This document shows positions 2,575-11,887 of a stretch of DNA of 11,887 bases, piece after piece. Position 1 is the first letter of the stretch. Each line of letters starts with the position of its first letter. Under the pieces are notes generated by a model that was not told the DNA's origin, did no database searches, and was given only the letters and a program-made list of their open reading frames with translations. The position numbers and the translations under genes are program-made. Source of the DNA: a virus (taxonomy: Duplodnaviria > Heunggongvirae > Uroviricota > Caudoviricetes); IMG/VR virus record IMGVR_UViG_2541047953_000003, positions 1-11,887 of that record; one strand, given 5' to 3'.

Positions 2575-2649
2575 GTCCTCTTAGTTAAATGGATATAACG
2601 AGCCCCTCCTAAGGGCTAATTGCAGGTTCGATTCCTGCAGGGGACACCA
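2575..2649 (+). tRNA. argW: tRNA-Arg, anticodon CCU
   Basis: 75-nt sequence folding as a cloverleaf: acceptor stem GTCCTCT/AGGGGAC, anticodon loop CTCCTAA (anticodon CCT), T-loop GGTTCGATTCC, encoded 3' CCA. Followed directly by an integrase gene, the classic argW island arrangement. Confidence 0.93.
2620..2635 (+). repeat. 16-bp segment of argW (TTGCAGGTTCGATTCC) that recurs exactly at 11652..11667; candidate att core, attL copy
   Basis: Exact 16/16 direct repeat found by eye. Its position inside the tRNA T-arm next to a P4-type integrase is typical of a tRNA-targeting att core. Confidence 0.6.
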
Positions 2650-2739
2650 TTTATCAGTTCGCTCCCATCCGTACCAGTCCGCAAAATCCCCTGAACATCA
2701 AGCCTTCCGTATATTCACAGTTCGTAATGGTTCGCGTCA

Positions 2740-2810
2740 GATCGTTGACAGCCACACTCCATGACGGGTAAAAAGTGGATAAAATAATTTTACCCACCGG
2801 ATTTTTACCC
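2740..2810 (+). promoter_or_regulatory. Candidate intS promoter and recombinase/RDF binding region (attL arm)
   Basis: TTGACA at 2745..2750; TAAAAT at 2780..2785; inverted repeat GGGTAAAA (2765..2772) / TTTTACCC (2789..2796), with TTTTACCC repeated again at 2803..2810 abutting the ATG. GTTCG motifs recur at 2626, 2657, 2719 and 2730. Confidence 0.35.
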
Positions 2811-3968
2811 ATGCTCACCGTTAAGCAGATTGAAGCAGCAAAGCCGAAAGAAAAACCATACCGCCTACTCGATGGTAATGGTCTGTACCTTTATGTCCCT
2901 GTATCCGGAAAAAAGGTCTGGCAGCTTCGCTACAAGATTGACGGTAAGGAGAAAATCCTGACCGTAGGAAAATATCCGCTAATGACTTTGCAGGAGGCAA
3001 GGGATAAGGCATGGACTGCGAGGAAAGACATCTCGGTTGGCATCGATCCGGTAAAGGCGAAAAAGGCTTCGTCTAACAACAATTCATTTAGTGCGATTTA
3101 CAAGGAATGGTACGAGCACAAGAAGCAAGTCTGGTCAGTAGGCTATGCAACTGAACTTGCCAAAATGTTTGATGACGACATTTTACCCATCATCGGCGGT
3201 CTTGAGATTCAGGATATTGAGCCGATGCAACTGCTGGAAGTAATCCGCAGATTTGAAGATCGCGGTGCAATGGAGCGAGCCAACAAAGCCCGCAGAAGAT
3301 GCGGCGAGGTTTTCCGTTACGCTATTGTCACCGGAAGGGCTAAATATAACCCAGCACCTGACCTTGCTGACGCCATGAAGGGATACCGCAAGAAGAACTT
3401 CCCGTTTCTTCCTGCAGACCAGATCCCGGCATTCAATAAAGCACTAGCAACATTTTCAGGAAGTATCGTATCGCTCATTGCCACCAAGGTTTTACGCTAT
3501 ACAGCCCTAAGAACGAAAGAGCTTCGTTCCATGCAATGGAAGAACGTCGATTTTGAAAACAGGATTATCACCATCGACGCCAATGTGATGAAGGGACGCA
3601 AAATTCATGTGGTTCCTATGTCAGACCAGGTGGTTGAACTTCTCACTACGCTAAGCTCAATCACTAAACCAGTGTCAGAGTTTGTTTTTGCCGGACGCAA
3701 CGATAAGAAGAAGCCAATCTGCGAGAACGCGGTGCTACTTGTGATCAAACAAATCGGCTATGAGGGTCTGGAAAGCGGTCACGGATTCAGGCATGAATTC
3801 AGTACGATTATGAACGAGCACGAATGGCCTGCTGACGCTATTGAGGTGCAACTGGCACATGCCAACGGCGGATCTGTGCGTGGGATTTACAACCATGCTC
3901 AGTATCTCGATAAGCGCAGAGAAATGATGCTGTGGTGGGCGGACTGGCTGGACGAAAAGACACAGTAA
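2811..3968 (+). CDS. intS: Tyrosine recombinase, P4-type prophage integrase (IntS-like, 385 aa)
   Basis: ORF immediately downstream of argW. The C-terminal region has the tyrosine recombinase signature (HGFRHEF ... VQLAHANGG ... RGIYNHAQY). Start chosen at MLTVKQ (2811); an in-frame ATG at 2775 would add 12 residues. Confidence 0.85.
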   Translation: MLTVKQIEAAKPKEKPYRLLDGNGLYLYVPVSGKKVWQLRYKIDGKEKILTVGKYPLMTLQEARDKAWTARKDISVGIDPVKAKKASSNNNSFSAIYKEWYEHKKQVWSVGYATELAKMFDDDILPIIGGLEIQDIEPMQLLEVIRRFEDRGAMERANKARRRCGEVFRYAIVTGRAKYNPAPDLADAMKGYRKKNFPFLPADQIPAFNKALATFSGSIVSLIATKVLRYTALRTKELRSMQWKNVDFENRIITIDANVMKGRKIHVVPMSDQVVELLTTLSSITKPVSEFVFAGRNDKKKPICENAVLLVIKQIGYEGLESGHGFRHEFSTIMNEHEWPADAIEVQLAHANGGSVRGIYNHAQYLDKRREMMLWWADWLDEKTQ

Positions 3969-3976
3969 TCAAAAGC

Positions 3977-4000
3977 GGCAGGCCACATAAAAAGCCTGCC
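3977..4000. terminator. Hairpin between convergent intS and the UmuD'-like gene
   Basis: Stem GGCAGGC (3977..3983) / GCCTGCC (3994..4000) with a 10-nt A-rich loop. The U-tract is weak on both strands. Confidence 0.4.
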
Positions 4001-4318
4001 TTATACCGCTACGCTGTCACTTCTCACATCGATGATGGTGTGTGTCACCACGCCGGCGACAGTGATATCATCCAGGGCCTCGCCTTCAATCGCTTCGCCG
4101 TCTTCGGTTATCAGCGACCGCCCTCTCAACGTGGCAAGTTCCGTCCCGCCGCCGTGCTGGATCAGAACCTGACTACCCTGCCTTGGTTTCAGGGAGATAT
4201 CCAACACAACGTAACCGCCAGACCGCTCGAAAACTAGCGTGTTTGGGCCTACATTGCAGATCGCGTTAACAGACAGACGCTGCTCAACGTAGTCAGACGC
4301 CGGAGACGGGAACGCCAT
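4001..4318 (-). CDS. UmuD'-like protein (S24 LexA/UmuD fold), genetically pre-truncated and lacking the GDSM serine motif
   Basis: N-terminus MAFPSPASDYVEQR matches the UmuD segment GFPSPAADYVEQR that immediately follows the RecA-mediated cleavage site. The C-terminal half aligns loosely with the UmuD beta-core, but no GDSM-type serine motif is present (RSGGY instead). Start codon overlaps the stop of the upstream small gene (TGATG). An in-frame ATG at 4351 is the alternative start. Confidence 0.7.
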   Translation of the reverse strand: MAFPSPASDYVEQRLSVNAICNVGPNTLVFERSGGYVVLDISLKPRQGSQVLIQHGGGTELATLRGRSLITEDGEAIEGEALDDITVAGVVTHTIIDVRSDSVAV

Positions 4319-4557
4319 CAGATGACCCTCCCCATGTTGGCCATCATCCACAGCCTGTTTTCGCTATGCTCTGCCGTTTTGTCGACAAAGTACGTCTGCT
4401 CTCTTGATATCCAGTTGTTAGCCTCCTCTTCTGAAAAATGGATACCCCTCCGCTGTAGTTCGGAGATGAAAGAATCAGTGTAAAGGTATTGATAACCTTT
4501 AGGATTTATAGAAATGGAGGCTCTGAAAGCCTCCGCGATGGCGTTACGTCTGATCAT
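4318..4557 (-). CDS. Small hypothetical protein (79 aa from ATG; 83 aa if the TTG at 4569 is used), first gene of the SOS-box operon
   Basis: ORF directly downstream of the LexA box and translationally coupled to the UmuD'-like gene. I recognise no family. The arrangement recalls the small impC gene preceding impA in plasmid impCAB operons; this is an analogy by position only. Confidence 0.5.
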   Translation of the reverse strand: MIRRNAIAEAFRASISINPKGYQYLYTDSFISELQRRGIHFSEEEANNWISREQTYFVDKTAEHSENRLWMMANMGRVI

Positions 4558-4575
4558 GTCTCTTACCAAACAAAA

Positions 4576-4591
4576 CTGTATTTATATACAG
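4576..4591 (-). promoter_or_regulatory. LexA (SOS) box CTGTATTTATATACAG overlapping a candidate promoter
   Basis: Matches the E. coli consensus CTGT-N8-ACAG with an AT-rich centre. It lies 19 bp upstream of the small-gene ATG. On the transcribed strand a -35 TTGACT (complement of 4612..4617) sits about 17-18 bp upstream of a -10 that overlaps the box. Confidence 0.7.
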
Positions 4592-4622
4592 TATTGTTTG
4601 CGTTAATCAACAGTCAATCATT

Positions 4623-6722
4623 TTATTGAATAAAAGTGTAAGGAGAAGCGATGGTATATTGTGCATTAGCCCCTATGGGAGTATCGAAAATCCACACCTC
4701 ACTCAAACCATCTTTTGTAATTGACGCGTTAGGTCCCCCATGGCTGCATCCATAAAGATATAACTTTGCTTTACCAGTTAAGTCGGATCCTTGCCCAGCA
4801 GTAAAGCAGGCGCCACCGATAAAGTCTGCCCTTGAACTATCATGCGAGTAACACCCAAAGTTAGCTGTAACCGTGCCATCATGAACATCGTGAACTACAC
4901 GGCCAAACGTTCCGTAGTATTCACCGTTCAAACGTATCCCTACAGTTCCGTCATGAGCGGTAGAGCCGTTATTATTTGGTAAATTATCAAAACCACTCCA
5001 ACGGCCAGTACAACCAATTTCGATAAACCACGGCTTTATCCCAAGACCATTCTGATCGGCATGATAGTTAAATGCGTCCTGCATCCCGTATTGAGCAGTG
5101 CAATTCTGCATAATACAGTTTACACCTAAAGAGTTAAAGGCATTCCTTGTCACAGATAAATCAAATATACAATTTTTTGCATATAAGTATCCTTTTTTAC
5201 CCGCCGTTTGAACCTCAGCCTGAAACCCCCTAAAGCTGTCCTTAAAGTGAATATTTTCAATATAAACTTTGCTATTATCCTGAATTCTTCCATTAGTCAA
5301 TTGAAGAACAAGCCGTGAATTAGAATCAGGAGCTCGCCCGTCAAAAAGATGAATATACAGCGTATTCCCTGTTTTATAGGATGAGCCAGGTGTTGAAACG
5401 CAGTCGGCAAGGCTGGCTACGGGAGTTAGAACCTGAGCATGTCCATAACTATCAAGATTGGCATAGTCAACAACGTTTAGAACAAGATTACCTGTGTACT
5501 GGTATACGCCAGCGCTTCCCTGTGCCGCCCACGTTGCAGCCGGTTCAACAGTGCTCAGAATTGGTGTTCCATCGTATCCGATGAAATCGAGCTCGCGGTC
5601 AACTACGCTAACATTCCATGTAAAATCACGGGTATATTCCATCCCGCCTTTTATCATGATTGTCCTTGCTGCCGGGGTTTTCTCAATGGCATATTTTATA
5701 CGCTGGAATGGTTTAGCCTGCGTGCCGTCTCCAGTCGTATCACTACCGTTAGTGCAGTCCACATAATATGTTGTCCCGCTGGATGCCTTCTTCACAGCCA
5801 CATCATAATCAGTCCAATATCTAAGCGTGCCATCAGAACGAAGTGCGCAGTAAATTGGAATCTGCTCTTCTATTCTTCTCAGCTCACCTGGAAACCATGG
5901 TATTGATGATGGGCATCCGGCAATTCCAAAAGCACTTTTATTTGCATTGCCAATTAATTCTATAAGAGTCCCTGATTTAATATGAGCAATAAGTAGCGAG
6001 CCGTCAAATGGATATCTGTCACGCGCTTCATATGTTCCGTCTGATTTAACAACAATACATATTGTGCTTGATGTTGTTGTGACATTCTGATTTTGACCAA
6101 TAACACTAACGCCATTAAAAGAATAAAGACCGCCAGAAAAGCTTATAGTTGATGATCCTGCAACTGGTTTCCATTGAGGAGATATAATCACGCCTCCTAA
6201 CGATCTGTATAATCTATCAAGAGCTGTATAAACGGTGCTGTCCCTATAGCCAACCAAGGTGGCTCCATTTGACTCTCCAAGCGCTGAGAAATCTACGCTT
6301 ATTGAGCTTATTGCATCGTATACATTGGTGTCTTTAAATCCTACTAATTTCGCGCCATCTGGCTGTGAAAGATCATATCTTAGCTGATCTGGTGAATATC
6401 TTAAGACATTGGAGAAGTAAAATTGCTGTGCTCCATATGCATCATACACAGCCATGCTATGGCTTTGAACTGTCACGAATTTGGCAATCTGTCCGTTATA
6501 TACAGGATAACCAGCGGCGTTAATGATGATTGGCTGCGAAACAGGAACGTGAGAACCATCCTCATTCTCCACATAAACCTGAATCTGGTTTTCAGGATTT
6601 ACCGGGTCAGTGTCAATTTTACCGATATAAATTTTACCATTGGCAACCGCTTTAAAAGAACGCGCCATAGTGAAGAGTTGCGAAGGCATGCTTACTACAA
6701 CATTGGCTGTAATGTCTGTCAT
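4623..6722 (-). CDS. Phage tailspike protein (P22 gp9-type head-binding domain plus divergent receptor-binding region)
   Basis: 699-aa ORF. The first ~110 residues ([11 protein letters not shown]...[23 protein letters not shown]...) match the conserved N-terminal domain of P22-like tailspikes as remembered. The rest differs from P22 gp9 and contains a beta-helix-type start motif ([15 protein letters not shown]...TIMIKGG). RBS GGAG upstream. Confidence 0.85.
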
Positions 6723-6779
6723 TTAATTTGCTCCAGATAGAAGGAAACGCCGCAGCGTGGCTACGGCAATGCGTCATTG

Positions 6780-6794
6780 AGACCACAGTGGTCT
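6780..6794. promoter_or_regulatory. Candidate Mnt operator: perfect 7-1-7 palindrome AGACCACAGTGGTCT
   Basis: Perfect palindrome between divergent mnt and tailspike, immediately upstream of a candidate mnt promoter (-35 TTGTGG 6797..6802, -10 TATGAT 6820..6825). Resembles the P22 mnt operator half-site as I recall it. A second small palindrome CAATGCGTCATTG lies at 6766..6778. Confidence 0.5.
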
Positions 6795-6857
6795 TATTGT
6801 GGATATAACCAGTAGATCATATGATGCCGATCCACTTACAAAAGTGAGGCATCAAGA

Positions 6858-7109
6858 ATGGGAAGAGATGACCCGCAATTTAATCTGCGGCTACCTTACG
6901 AATTAAAGGAAAAACTAAAACAGCGAGCCAAATCCAATGGCCGCTCTCTTAATTCAGAATTAGTTCAGATAGTGACTGATGCTGTATCAAAGCCATCCAA
7001 AATTTCAGGCTATCGAGACGATGCGGAACGCATCGCTGATGAGCAGTCTGAACTTGTTAAGAAGATGGTGTTTGATACGCTGAAGGATTTGTACAAAAAA
7101 CCCACCTGA
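6858..7109 (+). CDS. mnt: Mnt-type repressor (Arc/MetJ ribbon-helix-helix family)
   Basis: 83-aa ORF with strong similarity throughout to P22 Mnt as remembered (RDDP.FN.R.P...EKLK.RA..NGRS.NSEL.QIV.DA.SKPS...GYR.DAER.ADEQSELVKKMVFDTLKDLYKK). RBS GTGAGG 8 nt upstream. Confidence 0.85.
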   Translation: MGRDDPQFNLRLPYELKEKLKQRAKSNGRSLNSELVQIVTDAVSKPSKISGYRDDAERIADEQSELVKKMVFDTLKDLYKKPT

Positions 7110-7122
7110 TGGTGGGTTCCAT
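7101..7122. terminator. Intrinsic terminator between convergent mnt and the lipoprotein gene
   Basis: Stem CCCACC (7101..7106) / GGTGGG (7111..7116) with loop TGAT containing the mnt stop codon. On the - strand the hairpin is followed by TTTTTTG, making it strong for the lipoprotein gene; the + strand U-tract is weaker. Confidence 0.7.
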
Positions 7123-7125
7123 TTA

Positions 7126-7545
7126 TTAGTCTTGCTTTGTGGACGGTATAAGGGATGCATTTGCCTCTTTAGGCTTCAAGGTATACATCCCACCATTAAA
7201 TGGATCTACAGCAAGCCAACCAATTAACCCACCAAACACAAGGTTTCCACCAATATACCAACCATTAGCATTGGCTTTTATTGGCATGGTAACTGGTTCG
7301 TACCCATCCTTCTCCATAGTGATCTGGTAGCTCTTTTTGCCAAAATAACTACCATCTGACTTGGCAAGAGTTACTCCTTGCGGGGTCTTACCTTGCGCAA
7401 CAATCACGCCTGATTCGTCTTTTACCTTAAAGCTCGCACCGGAAGGATTGCTGTTCACTTGCACAAGCTGTGTTTCGTCACCAACAATAGTTGCGCACCC
7501 AGATAACATGATAACGCCAGCAACGACGCCGATAATCCTCTTCAT
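7126..7545 (-). CDS. Putative prophage lipoprotein (139 aa) with a PEGA-like beta region and a glycine-rich hydrophobic C-terminus
   Basis: Signal peptide with lipobox (VIMLSGC). The middle region has a PEGA-like pattern (VQVNSNPSGASFKV...GKTPQGVTL...GYEPV), and the C-terminus has a Gly-zipper-like hydrophobic segment (YIGGNLVFGGLIGWLAV). Has its own terminator. The domain call is from pattern only. Confidence 0.6.
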   Translation of the reverse strand: MKRIIGVVAGVIMLSGCATIVGDETQLVQVNSNPSGASFKVKDESGVIVAQGKTPQGVTLAKSDGSYFGKKSYQITMEKDGYEPVTMPIKANANGWYIGGNLVFGGLIGWLAVDPFNGGMYTLKPKEANASLIPSTKQD

Positions 7546-7616
7546 ATTACTTTCCGTTTTGTTAGAATCAGAAAGATCTTAATAATAAAAAGTATTTTCG
7601 TGAAGATATTGTCGAT

Positions 7617-7631
7617 TGAGTTAATAACTCA
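7617..7631. promoter_or_regulatory. Perfect 7-1-7 palindrome TGAGTTAATAACTCA in the divergent lipoprotein intergenic region
   Basis: Perfect palindrome about 50 bp upstream of the + strand lipoprotein start, inside an AT-rich divergent promoter region (7546..7679). Operator-like; the binding protein is unknown. Confidence 0.35.
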
Positions 7632-7679
7632 TTTACACCCAACAGTGCCATGATGGCAAAGATAAGGAGAGTTAATCAT

Positions 7680-8165
7680 ATGAAAAAATCACTGTTAATT
7701 ATCCCGCTTCTGCTGGCAGGGTGTGCAAAGATTAGCGACTATCAGGCAAGTTGCGAACAACGCTATCCAAAGCTTAGCGATATGGCTAATTGCCTTGATG
7801 CTAGCGTGAAGAGCGACTCACGCATGGCATCAGCACCAACACCTAAGTTATATGTCCTTGCTGCGAAGATGCTCGGGCAAGGTGTCGATGATGGCAAGAT
7901 AAGTGACGCGCAGGCAAGACTTGAGCTTCAGAATCTTTATGTTCAATTACAAAGCCAAGAACAAGCCCAACAAATAGCGCAAAGCCAAGCATTCCAGCAG
8001 GCTTTATTGAATTATCAGGCTGTAAACACTATGCAAGCGATCGAGCAAAAAGCGAGACAGCCTGTTATAACTCAACCATATCCAACACGAGTTGACACTT
8101 ACACAAACTGCAATTCAGGGTTTGGAAATACAGTCACATGCAACAGTAGCAGTAACATCAGATAA
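7680..8165 (+). CDS. Putative prophage lipoprotein (161 aa) with a Gln-rich, probably coiled-coil region
   Basis: Start taken at MKKSLLIIPLLLAGC (lipobox LAGC) with RBS AAGGAGA 9 nt upstream. The in-frame ATG at 7650 is less likely. The mature part contains a Q-rich heptad-like stretch (LELQNLYVQLQSQEQAQQIAQSQAFQQALLNYQ). I recognise no family. Confidence 0.6.
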   Translation: MKKSLLIIPLLLAGCAKISDYQASCEQRYPKLSDMANCLDASVKSDSRMASAPTPKLYVLAAKMLGQGVDDGKISDAQARLELQNLYVQLQSQEQAQQIAQSQAFQQALLNYQAVNTMQAIEQKARQPVITQPYPTRVDTYTNCNSGFGNTVTCNSSSNIR

Positions 8166-8255
8166 CAATCAGCAAAGGTATCGCCTATGCAGAGGGATAC
8201 GATAAACCTCGCGTTCTACATATTTGGTTTTTGCACGTTCATGGTGTTTGAAAAG

Positions 8256-10649
8256 CTATTCTGACAACGCATCAGACTTAGCCCCCTGCATCATAGCGTT
8301 AATTGCCTTTTGTGCCTGCTGCATGGCTTTCTCAAACGCTGTTGAACCGCGTGGGGTGTTTGCCATTCGGAGCATTGCATTTCTGAATGGCTCGCTCTCA
8401 TAGGCGCGAGTAAGAAGTCCGTAGCTTACTGCTGCGCCAGTTGTCGCCGGGTTCATTGCCGTCCCATACCCAATTATGAACGGGATAGTTTGCTGCCCTG
8501 TGGGTGTTGTTACTGCCGCTTTTGCAGCCTGCTGCGTGGATTGCAGGTAGTTTTTTAATCCTTTCAGATAAGCAGCGTCCTGCCCCTTAAATGTGATGCC
8601 AGTCTGTTTTTGCAGGATGTTAAGCTGCCGAAGGAACTGGTCAGGGGATCCGCCAGATTTCTCCATCGCCTTTCCAATGATGCCATTGCGCATTTGCGCC
8701 CTGCCAACACGACCAACTGAGTTATACAGCGTCTTAATTTCCGATTTGTTCTTGCTGAATAGCATGTTGTTGACAACTTCCGGTGTCAGGTCGCCTTTCA
8801 TGAGAACATTCTTCAGCCTGGTATTCTTTAGTTTCGCCGCTTCGTCAGCGTAGACGGCATTGGCCTGCTGATATTTACGGAGAGTATCGTTGCCAAGATT
8901 CTGACCAATGGCACCATTGATATCGTCTGTCATCGCCTTGTAAACGCGCTGAATGGCAGCATCGGAACGGTTTGGCAACACTGGTCGTTCCCCCTTCACG
9001 TCCATTCTGAACTGGCTGCGCAGATCGCTTAATTGCTTCAAATCCAGATTTACCGGACCATCAGGACCAGCATTGCGAACAAGCTCATCACGATAGGACT
9101 GAAGTTTTGAAATAGTCTCGTTATCGGCGACCTTACCAAGCTTCTGCAGATTAGATATTTCTGTATCAATCTGCTGAATTGCTCGCGCAGGATGAATGTT
9201 TACTCCAGCCATAGCATTCTGAACCTGCTCCAGTCGATTACCGGCGGCACGACGAATTCCTGATGTTTTCGCTTTAAGGCTGTCAATAACAACCGCTGGA
9301 TCATACTCACCGAATTTATCGGCAAATCTCTGCACCAACTGGCTTCTCGCTTCCTGTTGCGTTGCTCTCATTCCGCTTGTGCCAGCCAGGGGGATATTTT
9401 CTGCTGTAGTCTGCGCCATTTTCCCGACGCGGGAAGTAGGCTGTAACAGGTCTGTGGTGTGCAGAGGAACTCCTTCACGCTCTGCAAACCTGATAGCCTG
9501 TTGAGCTTCTGGTGCTATCGAACCACGAACACCACGATAAGCAGCACCTAATCCACGTCCGGCAGCGTTAATAGCACCGCCAGCCAGCACACCAACGCCT
9601 AAATCGGTGGCGAGTGCTTCCGCATCATCTTTCGCACTGTTTGCAGCAAGTGATCCAACTGCGTTTTCTGCTAGAAGACGAGTTGCACCCTGAGCAATTC
9701 GACCAGCAAGTGTTGGTGCCTGTGTTGCCGCTCTCTCAACGCCAGCAGGAGTGAGGTAAGGCAATGCTTCAGCAAATACCCTTCCCTCTGTCGTTTGTGG
9801 AGTCAGCGCGCCTTGCTGAAGGCCAAAGTCCTGCTCTAATCCCTGCGTTGTTACTCGTGGTGCTGGTTGATATGTACCATCGCCAATGCCGAGTTTACCT
9901 CCAGCCCAAGCCGCCGCGCTTGTTACAGCATCAGTGAGTTCAGCAGGTATGTTCGCTACGTTGATTCCTGCCTGTAGTAAGCCGCGCCCGGTTTCAGCAA
10001 GTCCATTACCAAGGTCAGACATTATTCCGCCTTGCTGCTGAACAGGTTTCGGTGCGACAGAACTTACGGGTTGAGGTGGCTGCTGACTGGCTGCCTGCTG
10101 CTCAATCTGAGCAAATGGATTATTTGGGTCTGACTGCACGCCTGATGCCGATACTTGTTCGGATGACTGTGCTTCCAGTTGTGCAAACGGGTTGTTAGGG
10201 TCTTGCTGAGGATGTACCTTTGCAGAGGTGGCGCGCTGTTCGACTGTTGAGTCTGTCACCGGGTCACCCGCCCATTGAGCAAAGCGATCATCAACGTAAC
10301 CGCGGCCTTCAGGTCCTGGCGTATATTCACCACGCTTTGCCTTCATAACGTTGCCGGGACCGTCGTGATAAGCCTGAAGAGCGTCACGCCAGTTACCAAA
10401 CTGCTGGTACATCTTTGCCAGATAGCGCGCGCCAGCGTCAGCCTGATATTCGGGGTTTTGCATTTGCTCATCGGTATAACCCATATCACGCCATGTCCCA
10501 GGCATGACCTGAGTCAATCCTACAGCCCCGGCGGAGCTTACTGCGGCAGGGTTGTAAGAAGACTCCTTGGCACCCAGTGCAGTCATCAACCCTTCTGGCA
10601 CACCGTAACGTGCGCCAGCCTGCTCTAACAAATCACGGTAATTAGCCAT
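8256..10649 (-). CDS. Phage ejection (internal virion) protein with an N-terminal lytic transglycosylase (SLT) domain
   Basis: 797-aa ORF. The N-terminus carries family-1 lytic transglycosylase motifs (ALGAKESSYNP with catalytic Glu; AVGLTQVMPGTW; AGARYL). It is followed by a tandem peptide repeat (DPNNPFAQLE / DPNNPFAQIE) and a long Ala/Gly/Gln-rich body. Its position upstream of the immI-like region and tailspike corresponds to the last ejection gene of P22-like phages. Confidence 0.75.
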   Translation of the reverse strand: MANYRDLLEQAGARYGVPEGLMTALGAKESSYNPAAVSSAGAVGLTQVMPGTWRDMGYTDEQMQNPEYQADAGARYLAKMYQQFGNWRDALQAYHDGPGNVMKAKRGEYTPGPEGRGYVDDRFAQWAGDPVTDSTVEQRATSAKVHPQQDPNNPFAQLEAQSSEQVSASGVQSDPNNPFAQIEQQAASQQPPQPVSSVAPKPVQQQGGIMSDLGNGLAETGRGLLQAGINVANIPAELTDAVTSAAAWAGGKLGIGDGTYQPAPRVTTQGLEQDFGLQQGALTPQTTEGRVFAEALPYLTPAGVERAATQAPTLAGRIAQGATRLLAENAVGSLAANSAKDDAEALATDLGVGVLAGGAINAAGRGLGAAYRGVRGSIAPEAQQAIRFAEREGVPLHTTDLLQPTSRVGKMAQTTAENIPLAGTSGMRATQQEARSQLVQRFADKFGEYDPAVVIDSLKAKTSGIRRAAGNRLEQVQNAMAGVNIHPARAIQQIDTEISNLQKLGKVADNETISKLQSYRDELVRNAGPDGPVNLDLKQLSDLRSQFRMDVKGERPVLPNRSDAAIQRVYKAMTDDINGAIGQNLGNDTLRKYQQANAVYADEAAKLKNTRLKNVLMKGDLTPEVVNNMLFSKNKSEIKTLYNSVGRVGRAQMRNGIIGKAMEKSGGSPDQFLRQLNILQKQTGITFKGQDAAYLKGLKNYLQSTQQAAKAAVTTPTGQQTIPFIIGYGTAMNPATTGAAVSYGLLTRAYESEPFRNAMLRMANTPRGSTAFEKAMQQAQKAINAMMQGAKSDALSE

Positions 10650-10811
10650 TTACTGCCCCAAAGATGGAAGATATCCGTAGCGATTAATGAAGTCGATTGA
10701 CAGCTCGGGGTGCTGCTTCAGGTAATGGTCATGTATGAAGACGGTGAGATGTGGTCTGCAATGTGGAATGGCAATCGCTGGGATGATGGCACCGAATATC
10801 CGGATCCGCAC
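10650..10811 (-). pseudogene. Possible 3' remnant of the upstream ejection-protein gene (no start codon); marks the deletion junction
   Basis: The - strand frame ending at TAA (complement of 10650..10652), directly abutting the ATG of the 797-aa gene (TAAATG), is open for only 53 codons and contains no Met. It overlaps a + strand small ORF (10725..10868), so one of the two is not real. Confidence 0.3.
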
Positions 10812-10864
10812 TCAGTTACGCACTGGCGTGAAATGCCAGCAGCGCCGAAACAGGAGGTGAAGTC

Positions 10865-11077
10865 GTGAGCAAGCACATCATCAAATATGACTATCGAGAG
10901 GGAGTTAAACTTGCAAAGCATGAAATAGAAACGTGGTGCGGACATGCGCCACAATTTTCAGACTGGTTGTTTCAGGATGCTCAGCACGCGCTGTTGAGCA
11001 TTGAGCAGGGAACGCTGCTTGTTCCTTGCAAGAATTGTCTGGCAGCAATCATCAAAACGGCGCAGGAGGTGAAGTGA
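10865..11077 (+). CDS. Small hypothetical protein (70 aa, GTG start), possible Cys/His metal-binding motif
   Basis: Strong SD (CAGGAGGTGAAGT) 8 nt upstream of the GTG. Contains CGH ... CKNC. Its stop overlaps the start of the next gene (TGATG). Confidence 0.5.
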   Translation: MSKHIIKYDYREGVKLAKHEIETWCGHAPQFSDWLFQDAQHALLSIEQGTLLVPCKNCLAAIIKTAQEVK

Positions 11078-11361
11078 TGGACTCCTTCGCGAAATATACG
11101 ATCATTGACTGGATAGCATTCCTTCAGGTTTTGCTCATCTGGTTTTATATGGCTTACAGGAGTGGACAGTGGATTGTCAGTGTAGCCTGTAGCAAGGGAT
11201 GGCGTTGGTGGAACAGAAAGAATAAAAAAGCACTGGCATTGGATTCGTTTTACGAAGCATTCAATCTTAACAGCCTTCAGCCTGGTTCTGTCATTGTAGT
11301 CACCACTCAAAGCGGCATGACGATACAAATTCACAAGCCAAAGGAGGAAGGTCGTGGCTAA
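11077..11361 (+). CDS. Small hypothetical membrane protein (94 aa)
   Basis: Start at MDSFAKY, preceded by the same 13-nt CAGGAGGTGAAGT element. One N-terminal hydrophobic helix (IIDWIAFLQVLLIWFYMAY). The longer ORF from 11026 is less likely. Confidence 0.5.
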   Translation: MDSFAKYTIIDWIAFLQVLLIWFYMAYRSGQWIVSVACSKGWRWWNRKNKKALALDSFYEAFNLNSLQPGSVIVVTTQSGMTIQIHKPKEEGRG

Positions 11362-11423
11362 CCTGCAACTTGCCGTCAAAGGTGAATAACAATCCTCGCA
11401 TTCACTGGGATTTCTTTTATCTG

Positions 11424-11450
11424 AACTCGCTACGGCGAGTTTTGTTTTAT
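11424..11450 (+). terminator. Candidate hairpin terminator after the membrane-protein gene
   Basis: Stem AACTCGC / GCGAGTT with loop TACG, followed by TTTTGTTTTAT. Confidence 0.4.
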
Positions 11451-11461
11451 GGAGATGATAA

Positions 11462-11629
11462 ATGCACTTCCGAGTCACAGGTGAATGGAATGGAGAGCCA
11501 TTCGACAGGGTTATCGAAGCCGAGAACATCAGCGACTGCTATGACCACTGGATGCTGTGGGCGCAGATAGCACATGCAGACGTAACCAATATTCGAATTG
11601 AAGAACTGAAAGAACACCAAGCCGCCTGA
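11462..11629 (+). CDS. Small hypothetical protein (55 aa), prophage right-arm gene
   Basis: ATG preceded by GGAG with 7-nt spacing; ORF MHFRVTGEWNGEPFDRVIEAENISDCYDHWMLWAQIAHADVTNIRIEELKEHQAA, followed directly by a strong terminator. It is below the ORF-track size cutoff. It may correspond to the small ypdJ-type ORF next to torI in K-12, but I do not recognise the sequence. Confidence 0.45.
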   Translation: MHFRVTGEWNGEPFDRVIEAENISDCYDHWMLWAQIAHADVTNIRIEELKEHQAA

Positions 11630-11641
11630 TGGCGGTTTTTT
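11621..11641 (+). terminator. Rho-independent terminator
   Basis: Stem CCGCC (11622..11626) / GGCGG (11631..11635) with loop TGAT containing the stop codon, followed by TTTTTTATT. Confidence 0.75.
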
Positions 11642-11651
11642 ATTGCCTGAT

Positions 11652-11667
11652 TTGCAGGTTCGATTCC
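11652..11667 (+). repeat. Second exact copy of the 16-bp argW segment TTGCAGGTTCGATTCC; candidate att core (attR or internal junction)
   Basis: 16/16 identity with 2620..2635. It lies between a terminator and the RBS of the excisionase gene. The sequence downstream of the repeat is not tRNA-like. Confidence 0.55.
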
Positions 11668-11686
11668 CTATTCGGAGATAGCACTC

Positions 11687-11887
11687 ATGCAACACGAACT
11701 ACAGCCTGATTCACTGGTTGATTTGAAATTCATCATGGCCGATACTGGCTTCGGTAAAACCTTCATCTACGACCGGATTAAGTCCGGCGACCTGCCAAAA
11801 GCCAAAGTTATCCACGGGCGAGCAAGATGGTTATATCGTGACCATTGTGAATTCAAAAATAAGCTCTTAAGCCGCGCCAATGGGTAA
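11687..11887 (+). CDS. torI: Excisionase / recombination directionality factor (Xis/AlpA winged-helix family), TorI-like
   Basis: 66-aa ORF with the AlpA/Xis-type pattern (FIMADTGFGKTFIYDRIKSGDLPKAKVIHGRARWLYRD); RBS GGAG 9 nt upstream. Size and position at the far end of an argW prophage from intS match KplE1 TorI as I recall it. Confidence 0.65.
   Translation: MQHELQPDSLVDLKFIMADTGFGKTFIYDRIKSGDLPKAKVIHGRARWLYRDHCEFKNKLLSRANG

What the first reader, a model, noticed from the sequence alone, without database searches (positions are those of the whole stretch)
7126..8165. Divergent pair of prophage lipoproteins in the sieA/immI-equivalent position, with an operator-like palindrome between them
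Two unrelated lipoproteins are transcribed divergently from an AT-rich 134-bp region containing a perfect palindrome (TGAGTTAATAACTCA, 7617..7631). One has a PEGA-like beta region and a Gly-zipper C-terminus; the other has a Gln-rich coiled-coil. In P22 this position holds superinfection-exclusion functions, and prophage lipoproteins of this size often block receptors or DNA entry. I recognise neither protein, so they are candidate exclusion or envelope-modifying factors.
Basis: partly seen in the sequence, partly recalled or inferred. Interest (0 to 1): 0.55.

Follow-up and report, generated by a model that had tools for sequence, protein, structure and literature searches.

The report
Two prophage lipoprotein morons, function unknown
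Two small, unrelated lipoprotein genes sit back to back in the known fast-changing accessory region of a P22-like prophage remnant; they are real, conserved and switched on in lysogens, but they are separate cassettes rather than a pair, their function has not been tested, and the palindrome between them is probably not an operator.

Summary
LipoA (7126-7545, minus strand) and LipoB (7680-8165, plus strand; the upstream ATG at 7650 is not the start) are divergent lipoprotein genes. They flank a 134-bp spacer of 31% GC that contains the 7+1+7 palindrome at 7617-7631.

The locus is the known 'ant moron' of P22-like phages, between genes 16 and 9. Here it lies in a ~9-kb prophage remnant at tRNA-Arg.

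The two genes are independent cassettes. Only about 20% of viral loci carrying one also carry the other. LipoB occurs only in P22-like prophages, always next to gene 16, in the place and orientation of P22 sieA, but it shows no sequence similarity to SieA. LipoA is a phage-borne branch of a very large bacterial lipoprotein family with no qualifying Pfam model. It appears as a moron in at least five prophage positions, including the HK97 gp15 slot.

Published LF82/Gally RNA-seq (98% identical locus) shows both genes expressed in the lysogen. Levels are low in stationary LB and high in DMEM and macrophages. Both genes are under purifying selection (dN/dS about 0.05-0.1).

The palindrome is confined to one junction haplotype, and chance produces one in 8% of shuffles.

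An exclusion or envelope-modifying role is plausible but untested. This is a moderately interesting, new member of a known kind.

The parts
6780..6794 (.). Mnt-operator-like palindrome AGACCACAGTGGTCT. It lies between the tailspike start (6722, minus strand) and mnt. No arc or ant gene is present.
   Evidence: Found by the palindrome scan. It shares the CCAC-N-GTGG core with the annotated P22 mnt operator GGTCCACGGTGGACC. Binding is inferred, not tested.
6858..7109 (+). mnt (Arc/Mnt-family repressor, 83 aa); left neighbour of LipoA, convergent with it.
   Evidence: Pfam Arc E=2.8e-22 and Repressor_Mnt E=2.2e-18.
7099..7118 (.). Hairpin AACCCACC-TGAT-GGTGGGTT shared by the convergent mnt and LipoA genes; likely a bidirectional intrinsic terminator.
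   Evidence: Terminator scan. RNA folding gives -16.8 kcal/mol (z -3.2) on the plus strand and -15.4 kcal/mol (z -2.7) on the minus strand, where a U6 run follows the stem. An equivalent terminator is annotated in epsilon34.
7126..7545 (-). LipoA, a 139-aa lipoprotein precursor. Signal peptide 1-16, lipidated Cys17, Ala at +2. Beta-sandwich at residues 25-93, Gly-rich hydrophobic helix at 95-112, conserved VDPFNGGMYTLxP beta-hairpin at 113-131.
7546..7679 (.). 134-bp divergent intergenic spacer, 30.6% GC. It must hold the promoters, which are not resolved here. Candidate rightward promoters are TTCATA-16-TAGAAT (7541-7568) and TTGTTA-16-AATAAT (7559-7586). A weak leftward candidate, TTCACG-17-TAAGAT (7604 to 7576), comes from my own reading and scores 8 of 12.
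   Evidence: Composition. The promoter scan finds 4 sites against 3.8 expected, so it is not above chance. The spacer sequence is identical in Gally, where both genes are transcribed.
7617..7631 (.). Palindrome TGAGTTA-A-TAACTCA. Present, but probably not a conserved operator.
   Evidence: It occurs in 31 of 33 LipoA+LipoB loci of one haplotype and in one deletion variant (L103). It is absent from the alternative LipoA+LipoB haplotype L075/L125 and from the other 145 single-gene loci. The only near-copy in phage Gally lies inside a late-operon terminator hairpin.
7680..8165 (+). LipoB, a 161-aa lipoprotein precursor. Signal peptide 1-14, lipidated Cys15, Ala at +2. Helical domain at about 18-100 with conserved Cys25 and Cys38, Gln-rich helix to about 125, and a C-terminal Cys-x9-Cys beta-hairpin.
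   Evidence: ORF. phrog_6067 over the full length, E=1.7e-109. 88 homologues, all from Enterobacterales. Invariant cysteines in A3. AlphaFold2 mean pLDDT 62, with 74-81 for residues 20-100. dN/dS 0.04-0.18.
8256..10649 (-). Gene 16-type DNA ejection protein with an N-terminal SLT lytic transglycosylase domain. Right neighbour of LipoB, convergent with it.
   Evidence: Pfam SLT E=2.7e-25 and phrog_770 'DNA transfer protein' E=3e-239. No convincing terminator lies between it and LipoB.

Best explanation
[quoted passage not shown] They sit in the two variable slots of the known 'ant moron', the interval between gene 16 and the tailspike gene in P22-like phages. Here the prophage is a defective remnant at tRNA-Arg.

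Each cassette encodes a small lipoprotein. It is exported by Sec, lipidated at a conserved Cys and, because Ala follows that Cys, probably sorted by Lol to the inner leaflet of the outer membrane.

LipoB fills the slot that holds sieA in P22 and is found only in P22-like prophages. It most likely acts in the periplasm, through its helical domain and long Gln-rich helix, to interfere with infection by incoming P22-like phages. That would make it a positional and functional analogue of SieA, but not a relative.

LipoA is a phage-captured member of a very large bacterial family: a beta-sandwich lipoprotein with a glycine-rich membrane-seeking helix. It has been spread among unrelated phage types, so it most likely changes an envelope property that does not depend on the carrier phage's receptor.

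Shown: gene structure, lipoboxes, conservation, mosaic distribution and transcription in lysogens. Inferred: localisation and both functions. The palindrome is most likely a chance feature of one recombinant junction.
For: Anatomy:
- Lipoboxes and invariant cysteines.
- A confident beta-sandwich model for LipoA and a helical model for LipoB.

Moron status:
- The locus is described as the fast-changing 'ant moron', and epsilon34 gene 15 (which is LipoA) is described as matching bacterial genes of unknown function (PMC2629481).
- Presence of each gene varies independently.
- LipoA has a terminator.
- GC is 38-46% against 47-52% in gene 16.

Expression in LF82(Gally), a 98% identical locus, as log2(fpkm+5):
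- LipoA: 9.8-10.5 in B1/B6, 11.0 in macrophages at 1 h, 4.8-6.2 in stationary LB.
- LipoB: 7.9-8.2, 10.3 and 6.0-6.3 in the same conditions.
- The adjacent gene 16 stays at 3.6-4.1, and the C2 repressor is at 8.9-12.0.

Selection: dN/dS is about 0.04-0.12 for most comparisons.

LipoB position: always convergent with and next to gene 16 in E. coli, Salmonella, Serratia and Yersinia P22-like prophages. This is the place and orientation of P22 sieA. SieA is known to block DNA delivery by P22-like phages (PMC10883804).

LipoA positions: between the tail chaperone and tape measure genes in HK97-like prophages, which is the slot of the HK97 gp15 exclusion moron (PMC3594210); upstream of the tape measure gene in Proteus prophages; between gpI and gpJ; and beside N in an Arsenophonus prophage.

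The slot next to gene 16 holds other small envelope proteins in other prophages.
Against: - No functional test exists for either protein.
- Neither matches any defence or exclusion family: PADLOC finds none, and the Cor and Llp matches cover only the signal peptide.
- Position in a moron slot is weak evidence of function. Such slots also hold non-defence genes such as bor, lom and porins (one search shows a porin moron nearby).
- Strong purifying selection and high conservation across genera are not what an arms-race protein usually shows.
- LipoA's relatives outside Enterobacterales lie in ordinary chromosomal contexts. This points to a housekeeping-type envelope role rather than a phage-specific one.
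- Outer-membrane sorting is inferred only from the +2 rule. LipoA's hydrophobic helix could instead hold it in the inner membrane.
- The LipoB model has low confidence (pLDDT 62).
Confidence: 0.5

Rival explanations
1. The genes are host-fitness or lysogenic-conversion factors rather than phage-exclusion factors. They would act like lambda Bor or Lom, changing serum resistance, stress tolerance or host-cell interaction. Expression would be tuned to host-like conditions.
For: - Both genes rise 6-fold and 14-fold in macrophages compared with stationary LB (log2FC 2.55 and 3.84, q<1e-26). They are already high in the B1/B6 samples, which are presumably DMEM.
- LipoA travels with phages that use different receptors and entry routes, and it has chromosomal relatives in non-enteric bacteria.
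- Purifying selection fits a conserved host target.
Against: - Deleting the whole Gally prophage did not change LF82 survival in macrophages at 6 or 24 h (PMC9928086).
- The expression contrast may only reflect growth phase, since the LB sample was stationary.
- LipoB's restriction to P22-like prophages and to the sieA slot is hard to explain by a general host benefit.
Confidence: 0.3
2. The two genes form one co-regulated divergent unit controlled by a regulator that binds the palindrome, and they work together.
For: - The palindrome lies in the shared AT-rich spacer.
- Both genes change expression in the same direction in LF82.
- The junction haplotype that carries the palindrome is the commonest among loci with both genes, 31 of 33.
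Against: - About 80% of loci carry only one of the genes.
- Another LipoA+LipoB junction (L075/L125) lacks the palindrome, and single-gene loci use other upstream sequences.
- All copies of the palindrome belong to one nearly identical haplotype, so nothing shows independent conservation.
- Chance expectation is 8%.
- There is no second copy in the window or in Gally apart from a terminator hairpin.
- mnt, the tailspike gene and GALLYPH_17 are induced in the same way from other promoters. The shared response is therefore regional or global, not specific to the palindrome.
Confidence: 0.1
3. The proteins serve the phage's own lytic cycle. They might protect progeny from inactivation on cell debris or assist release, as T5 Llp does in its second role. 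They would not serve the lysogen.
For: - Both genes lie inside the late-operon region of the genome.
- LipoA homologues in siphophage prophages lie in the same orientation as the tail genes, so late transcription would include them.
Against: - In LF82 they are transcribed 30- to 100-fold above the flanking ejection genes while the structural genes are silent. Expression is therefore lysogenic and autonomous.
- In P22-like phages both genes are absent from most relatives, and LipoA is antisense to the late operon.
- The window's prophage is a remnant with no lytic cycle.
Confidence: 0.07
4. The ORFs are decaying passengers with no function.
For: They lie in a defective prophage remnant, and no function is known.
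Against: - dN/dS is about 0.05-0.1.
- Both are full-length and conserved across genera.
- Both are strongly transcribed.
- Lipobox and disulfide cysteines are invariant.
Confidence: 0.03

Closest known systems
P22 SieA (superinfection exclusion protein of P22-like phages; Leavitt et al. 2024, PMC10883804)
   Same: LipoB has the same genomic place and orientation: adjacent to and convergent with gene 16, inside the gene 16-gene 9 'ant moron'. Its size is similar (161 against 164 aa). Both are envelope proteins expressed from the prophage, and both are restricted to P22-like prophages.
   Different: There is no sequence similarity (BLASTP finds no alignment at E<=100). SieA is a polytopic inner-membrane protein (and the paper), whereas LipoB is a lipoprotein with a soluble helical domain. 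Exclusion by LipoB has not been tested.
HK97 gp15 moron (inner-membrane superinfection exclusion protein; Cumby et al. 2012, summarised in PMC3594210)
   Same: A LipoA homologue (68% identity) occupies the same slot in HK97-like E. coli prophages, between the tail assembly chaperone and tape measure genes. Like gp15, which derives from YebO, LipoA appears to be a bacterial envelope protein captured by phages.
   Different: The sequences and architectures are unrelated. gp15 is a small inner-membrane protein. LipoA is a lipoprotein with a beta-sandwich. No exclusion phenotype is known for LipoA.
Exclusion lipoproteins Cor (phi80/N15/HK022) and Llp (T5), which inactivate the FhuA receptor
   Same: All are small prophage- or phage-encoded outer-membrane lipoproteins.
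   Different: The matches cover only the signal peptide and lipobox: phrog_1119 Cor at residues 1-20, NF047972 at residues 1-30 with E 0.16, and PDB 8a60_B (Llp) at residues 1-30 with E 1.4. The mature parts are unrelated. Cor travels with FhuA-dependent phages, whereas LipoA travels with phages of many types.
Lambda Bor / Iss (prophage outer-membrane lipoprotein conferring serum resistance)
   Same: A lysogen-expressed moron lipoprotein with chromosomal or plasmid relatives that benefits the host rather than the phage. The LF82 paper notes Bor induction in DMEM for prophage Perceval, which resembles the pattern seen here.
   Different: No sequence or family match. No serum or virulence phenotype has been tested. 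The delta-Gally strain shows no macrophage survival defect.
PEGA / transthyretin-like (carboxypeptidase regulatory-like) beta-sandwich domains, and SlyB-type Gly-zipper lipoproteins

Membership tests
Bacterial lipoproteins (Lgt/LspA substrates) | N-terminal signal peptide with a positive n-region and hydrophobic h-region, ending in a lipobox [LVI][ASTVI][GAS]C | tested here: met
   LipoA: MKRIIGVVAGVIM-LSGC. LipoB: MKKSLLIIPLL-LAGC. The highest hydropathy windows lie at the N-termini. Two LipoA relatives hit Pfam LPAM_1.
Bacterial lipoproteins (Lgt/LspA substrates) | The lipobox Cys is conserved in homologues | tested here: met
   C17 is invariant in 32 LipoA sequences. C15 is invariant in 32 LipoB sequences.
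Bacterial lipoproteins (Lgt/LspA substrates) | Actual lipidation, signal peptidase II cleavage and membrane localisation | not testable with these tools
   This needs globomycin sensitivity, palmitate labelling and fractionation. Outer-membrane sorting is inferred only from Ala at +2.
Moron (independently expressed accessory cassette in a phage operon) | Present in some and absent from other closely related phages at the same map position | tested here: met
   PMC2629481 describes ten variants of this region in sixteen genomes.
Moron (independently expressed accessory cassette in a phage operon) | Transcribed from the repressed prophage while the flanking lytic genes are silent | tested here: met
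   Published LF82/Gally RNA-seq tables. LipoA reaches log2 11.0 and LipoB 10.3, against 3.6-4.1 for gene 16. The data come from a 98% identical locus, not from this strain.
Moron (independently expressed accessory cassette in a phage operon) | Own promoter and terminator | tested here: inconclusive
   A terminator for LipoA is found. None is found for LipoB. Promoter-like sites are not above chance.
P22 SieA family | Sequence homology to SieA types A-C | tested here: not met
   BLASTP of LipoB against P22 SieA gives no alignment. tblastn with P22 SieA finds nothing in 160 loci. Types B and C were not available to test.
P22 SieA family | Polytopic inner-membrane protein | tested here: not met
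   The only hydrophobic stretch in LipoB is its signal peptide. The SieA sequence has several long hydrophobic stretches.
P22 SieA family | Blocks DNA delivery by P22-like phages | not testable with these tools
   This needs plating, lysogenisation and K+ efflux assays.
Pfam PEGA domain (PF08308) | Score at or above the gathering threshold of 20.8 bits | tested here: not met
   19.8 bits, E 7.4e-4. Only 4 of 32 relatives hit at E<=0.01. The fold is nevertheless a transthyretin-like sandwich.
Glycine-zipper outer-membrane lipoproteins (Pfam Gly-zipper_Omp/OmpA/YMGG, Rick_17kDa_Anti; SlyB) | Match to a Gly-zipper profile | tested here: not met
   No such family matches at E<=0.1 for LipoA or at E<=0.01 for 32 relatives. 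There are only two GxxxG motifs in residues 95-109.
Cor / Llp receptor-blocking exclusion lipoproteins | Homology of the mature protein | tested here: not met
   Matches are limited to residues 1-30, the signal peptide.
Repressor operator | Dyad symmetry that overlaps a promoter, is conserved wherever the regulated gene occurs, and is usually repeated | tested here: not met
   The dyad is present. It is absent from other contexts of both genes and is not repeated. It is within chance at 8%. Protein binding cannot be tested here.

The most novel reading that the evidence does not exclude
LipoB founds a new family of periplasmic, outer-membrane-anchored superinfection-exclusion proteins specific to P22-like phages. 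It would replace the inner-membrane protein SieA at the same locus and block the trans-periplasmic ejection-protein conduit from the outer-membrane side. LipoA is the first handle on a very large lipoprotein family with no qualifying Pfam model (more than 5,500 clusters at 50% identity). Its beta-sandwich plus glycine-rich helix would remodel the outer membrane, which is why phages of many types have captured it.
Probability: 0.2. Interest if true: 0.6.

Novelty: new member of a known kind. Interest (0 to 1): 0.36.

Why it matters
Two thirds of sequenced P22-like phages lack sieA (PMC10883804). What fills the sieA slot in those phages is unknown. LipoB is the commonest candidate seen here and could be tested directly with the existing panels of P22, HK620, CUS-3 and Sf6 hybrid phages.

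LipoA belongs to a very large, unstudied family of bacterial lipoproteins. Its repeated capture by unrelated prophages suggests a selectable envelope function.

Both genes are among the most highly transcribed genes of prophage Gally in the Crohn's-associated strain LF82 in DMEM and inside macrophages. That prophage was nevertheless reported as 'devoid of morons', because only stationary LB was used for the call. The point is useful but incremental.

Tried and rejected
- **Family searches.** Pfam, NCBIfam, PADLOC and PDB sequence searches, with single sequences and with profiles, gave no informative family for either protein.
- **Homology of LipoB to its slot-mates.** None to P22 SieA and none to the hkcB-like protein (hhalign probability 0.1%).
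- **Palindrome as a repeated operator.** The best second copy in Gally (2 mismatches, 35239-35253) is the loop and stem of a terminator after the late promoter, so it is a coincidence.
- **Palindrome or LipoB leader as a structured RNA.** The fold gives z -0.18.
- **Promoter prediction.** It is not above chance in this region. The leftward TTCACG-17-TAAGAT site is only my own reading.
- **Spanin idea** (lipoprotein plus coiled coil). Rejected because Gally has its own Rz lysis gene and these genes are expressed in lysogeny.
- **Literature.** No paper in the library gives a function for either protein.
Full report
**Where the window comes from**

The window is Escherichia-type chromosome: mlaA 518-1273, yfdC 1567-2499, and tRNA-Arg(CCT) 2575-2649. 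A P22-like (Lederbergvirus) prophage follows it. In order it carries:
- an integrase, 2775-3968;
- a UmuD-like gene;
- a tailspike with a P22 head-binding domain, 4623-6722 (-);
- mnt, 6858-7109 (+);
- the two genes of the finding;
- a gene 16-type ejection protein, 8256-10649 (-).

Homology to intact P22-like prophages stops near 10726, about 77 nt into gene 20. The rest of the window is the DUF551/DUF4752/torI (excisionase) end. The prophage is therefore a remnant of about 9 kb. It has no immunity, head or lysis genes.

**Checking the observation**

LipoA runs 7126-7545 (-). LipoB runs 7680-8165 (+). Both begin with textbook lipoprotein signal peptides: MKRIIGVVAGVIM-LSGC and MKKSLLIIPLL-LAGC.

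The longer LipoB ORF from ATG 7650 is not the real gene, for three reasons:
- AAGGAG precedes ATG 7680.
- All homologues begin at the MKK/MKR methionine.
- Other upstream haplotypes do not keep the 7650 frame.

The spacer is 134 bp and 30.6% GC. It contains TGAGTTA-A-TAACTCA at 7617-7631.

The palindrome is real but not remarkable. 8.1% of shuffles of the spacer contain a palindrome with arms of at least 7 nt. The window as a whole has seven, against 3.3 +/- 2.1 in shuffles.

**What the proteins are: LipoA**

LipoA matches phrog_6823 end to end, a family of unknown function. Pfam PEGA scores just under its threshold (19.8 against 20.8 bits). Nothing is found in PADLOC, and nothing is found in PDB by sequence.

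An AlphaFold2 model built on 32 homologues has mean pLDDT 78. It shows:
- a confident beta-sandwich, residues 25-93, pLDDT about 95;
- a poorly defined glycine-rich hydrophobic helix, residues 95-112;
- a confident beta-hairpin, residues 121-131.

A profile search of 1.84 billion cluster representatives finds 5,584 clusters at E<=1e-3, mostly full-length proteins of 135-185 aa. The named ones are 'hypothetical', 'lipoprotein' or 'PEGA domain-containing'. Their organisms include Zoogloea, Acinetobacter and Enterobacter. Only 4 of 32 aligned relatives touch PEGA at E<=0.01, so no Pfam model effectively covers the family.

**What the proteins are: LipoB**

LipoB matches phrog_6067, also of unknown function. 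It has no Pfam hit in any of 32 relatives. Only 88 homologues were found, all in Enterobacterales.

It has two invariant cysteines beyond the lipid-attachment Cys15: Cys25 and Cys38. A further Cys-x9-Cys pair in the C-terminal hairpin is conserved. Two periplasmic disulfides are therefore likely.

The model is helical: a bundle over about residues 18-100 with pLDDT 74-81, then a long Gln-rich helix (33% Q over 84-129), then a low-confidence C-terminal hairpin. Fold matches are generic helix bundles.

**Selection**

Both genes are under strong purifying selection. dN/dS is about 0.04-0.12 for most comparisons.

**The genes are not a pair**

The same arrangement, 98% identical, occurs in Escherichia phages Gally (GALLYPH_14 and GALLYPH_13) and vB_EcoP-720R6.

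Elsewhere the genes occur apart:
- Salmonella phage epsilon34 has LipoA (gp15) next to an hkcB-like gene.
- Salmonella phage VSe13 has LipoB without LipoA.
- Among IMG/VR loci, 16 of 80 LipoA loci also hold LipoB, and 15 of 80 LipoB loci also hold LipoA.
- Among 5,426 complete E. coli genomes, 123 carry this LipoA allele, 182 carry LipoB, and 24 carry the adjacent pair.

The interval between mnt and gene 16 thus has two slots. The mnt-proximal, leftward slot is filled by LipoA or left empty. The gene 16-proximal, rightward slot is filled by one of:
- LipoB;
- a 129-aa secreted protein;
- a 107-aa hkcB-like protein with a transmembrane segment and coiled coil;
- a 109-aa protein with a transmembrane segment and coiled coil;
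- in P22 itself, sieA.

This is the region that Villafane et al. named the 'ant moron' and described as being in rapid flux. [quoted passage not shown]

**Genomic context of relatives**

LipoB relatives in Serratia and Yersinia all lie in P22-like prophages, immediately next to and convergent with gene 16. In some they sit directly downstream of mnt on the same strand. P22 sieA has the same place and orientation. LipoB nevertheless has no detectable similarity to SieA, which is a polytopic membrane protein.

LipoA relatives in Enterobacterales were prophage-borne in every case examined, but in quite different phages and positions:
- between the tail chaperone and tape measure genes of HK97-like E. 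coli prophages. This is the slot of the archetypal HK97 gp15 moron, a superinfection-exclusion protein (PMC3594210);
- upstream of the tape measure gene in Proteus prophages;
- between gpI and gpJ in a lambda-like tail operon;
- beside N in an Arsenophonus prophage.

More distant family members, in Zoogloea and in a marine metagenome bacterium, lie among ordinary chromosomal genes. LipoA therefore looks like a bacterial envelope lipoprotein that enterobacterial phages captured and spread.

**Expression**

Misson et al. (PMC9928086) re-analysed LF82 RNA-seq. LF82_139 is LipoA and LF82_138 is LipoB (coordinates matched).

In stationary LB, normalised counts are 51 and 70, against a prophage median of 15.6. 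That is just under the paper's 5-fold cut-off of 78, so the paper states that Gally has no morons.

The table below gives log2(fpkm+5). B1/B6 are presumably DMEM at 1 and 6 h. The paper names LB, DMEM and macrophage as the conditions, but the table legend was not readable.

| Gene | B1/B6 | Macrophage 1 h | Macrophage 6 h | Stationary LB |
|---|---|---|---|---|
| LipoA | 9.8-10.5 | 11.0 | 9.4-9.5 | 4.8-6.2 |
| LipoB | 7.9-8.2 | 10.3 | 8.5-8.7 | 6.0-6.3 |
| gene 16 | 3.6-3.7 | 4.0 | 4.1 | 3.6-3.9 |
| C2 repressor | 10.5-11.0 | 12.0 | 11.2-11.3 | 8.9-9.9 |

Macrophage (6 h) against LB gives log2FC 3.84 for LipoA and 2.55 for LipoB, with q<1e-26.

Both genes are therefore autonomously transcribed in the lysogen, in a condition-dependent way. 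mnt, the tailspike gene and GALLYPH_17 respond in the same direction. The response is thus not specific to the shared spacer.

Deleting the whole Gally prophage did not change survival in macrophages.

**The palindrome**

The exact palindrome occurs in 31 of 33 loci that hold both genes. These all share one nearly identical junction haplotype. It also occurs in L103, a variant that keeps the right part of the spacer but has no detectable LipoA or mnt.

It is absent elsewhere:
- A second LipoA+LipoB junction (L075/L125) joins the epsilon34-type LipoA upstream sequence to the common LipoB upstream sequence (...CATGATATCCTGTGAAAAACTAAGGAG...) and has no palindrome.
- So do the other 145 single-gene loci.

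There is no second copy in the window. The closest copy in Gally lies inside a terminator hairpin downstream of the late promoter. It does not form a notable RNA structure.

There is thus no independent evidence of conservation, and the chance expectation is 8%. I rate a regulatory role at about 0.1-0.15.

Promoters could not be placed. Promoter-like matches are at chance level.

A strong hairpin at 7099-7118 between mnt and LipoA probably terminates both genes.

**Most likely mechanism**

Shown:
- two independent cassettes encoding lipoproteins;
- both conserved under purifying selection;
- both expressed from the prophage.

Inferred from the E. coli +2 sorting rule: with Ala after the lipidated Cys, both proteins are sorted to the inner leaflet of the outer membrane.

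Inferred from position and distribution:
- LipoB is confined to P22-like prophages and to the sieA slot. It most likely interferes with infection by P22-like phages from the periplasmic side, for example with the ejection-protein conduit that SieA is thought to target (PMC10883804). I put this at about 0.35-0.4.
- LipoA is carried by phages with different receptors and entry machinery, and it has chromosomal relatives. It more likely changes a general envelope property through its membrane-seeking glycine-rich helix. A specific exclusion role is less likely, about 0.25.

The main rival is a Bor-like host-fitness role, at about 0.3. The expression pattern supports it. The lack of a delta-Gally macrophage phenotype weakens it.

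**Comparison with known systems, and novelty**

In kind, these are prophage morons encoding envelope lipoproteins, as Bor, Cor and Llp are. In position they parallel SieA and HK97 gp15. They are not members of any of those families: the mature parts do not match, and the only similarities lie in the signal peptides.

The locus and its variability are already described. The genes are annotated only as hypothetical proteins. I therefore class the finding as a new member of a known kind, with moderate interest. It gives concrete, cheap experiments and corrects the record on Gally morons, but nothing here would strongly surprise a specialist.

Noticed in passing
window 2575-11887: The prophage is a remnant of about 9 kb at tRNA-Arg(CCT). 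Similarity to intact P22-like prophages ends near 10726, about 77 nt into gene 20. After that come the DUF551, DUF4752 and torI (excisionase) genes of the opposite prophage end. The tailspike gene, mnt, both lipoprotein genes and gene 16 are still intact.
   Followed up: partly
window 6780-6794: The palindrome AGACCACAGTGGTCT resembles the P22 mnt operator core GGTCCACGGTGGACC. It lies between the tailspike start and mnt, in a locus with no arc or ant gene. Mnt may therefore control transcription into the tailspike gene directly here.
   Followed up: partly
window 4001-4569 (-): Two overlapping ORFs lie between the integrase and tailspike genes. One is UmuD/HumD-like (phrog_3469; NCBIfam HumD 42 bits, below its cut-off). 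The other belongs to phrog_3893, of unknown function. Other P22-like phages carry O-antigen modification genes at this position.
   Followed up: no
window 8256-10649 (-): The gene 16-type ejection protein carries an N-terminal SLT lytic transglycosylase domain (Pfam SLT, residues 7-110). The same fusion is seen in Serratia prophages, but not in the 665-aa Gally protein.
   Followed up: no
loci L004-L083 (region between LipoA and gene 16): In prophages that have LipoA but not LipoB, the slot next to gene 16 holds other small envelope proteins. These are a 129-aa secreted protein (MKQFLTAMFLFISFGATAECW...), a 107-aa hkcB-like protein and a 109-aa protein, the last two each with an N-terminal transmembrane segment and a coiled coil.
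   Followed up: partly
PMC9928086 tables S1/S4 (LF82_138, LF82_139): The paper states that prophage Gally has no morons. Its own tables show these two genes at 3.3-fold and 4.5-fold above background in stationary LB, and at levels close to the C2 repressor in the B1/B6 and macrophage samples.
   Followed up: yes
proteins P0209-P0358 (profile search of alignment A2): The LipoA family has 5,584 cluster representatives at E<=1e-3, and no Pfam model passes its threshold on the members tested. Some non-enteric members carry a conserved C-terminal extension (...DGSIAIVLLEDVPPxLR...).
   Followed up: partly
loci L166, L168, L169 (about 10260-11420): The HK97-like E. coli prophages that carry the LipoA homologue also carry a porin gene (Porin_1/Porin_4) inserted between the tail genes M and L. 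This is a second moron in the same tail operon.
   Followed up: no
locus L190 (E. coli D7, NZ_CP195949): The closest match to the mnt-LipoA-LipoB segment (99.8% identity) sits in a different and apparently complete P22-like prophage, next to ybhB and the bio operon rather than at tRNA-Arg. The cassette block has therefore moved between prophage backbones recently.
   Followed up: partly
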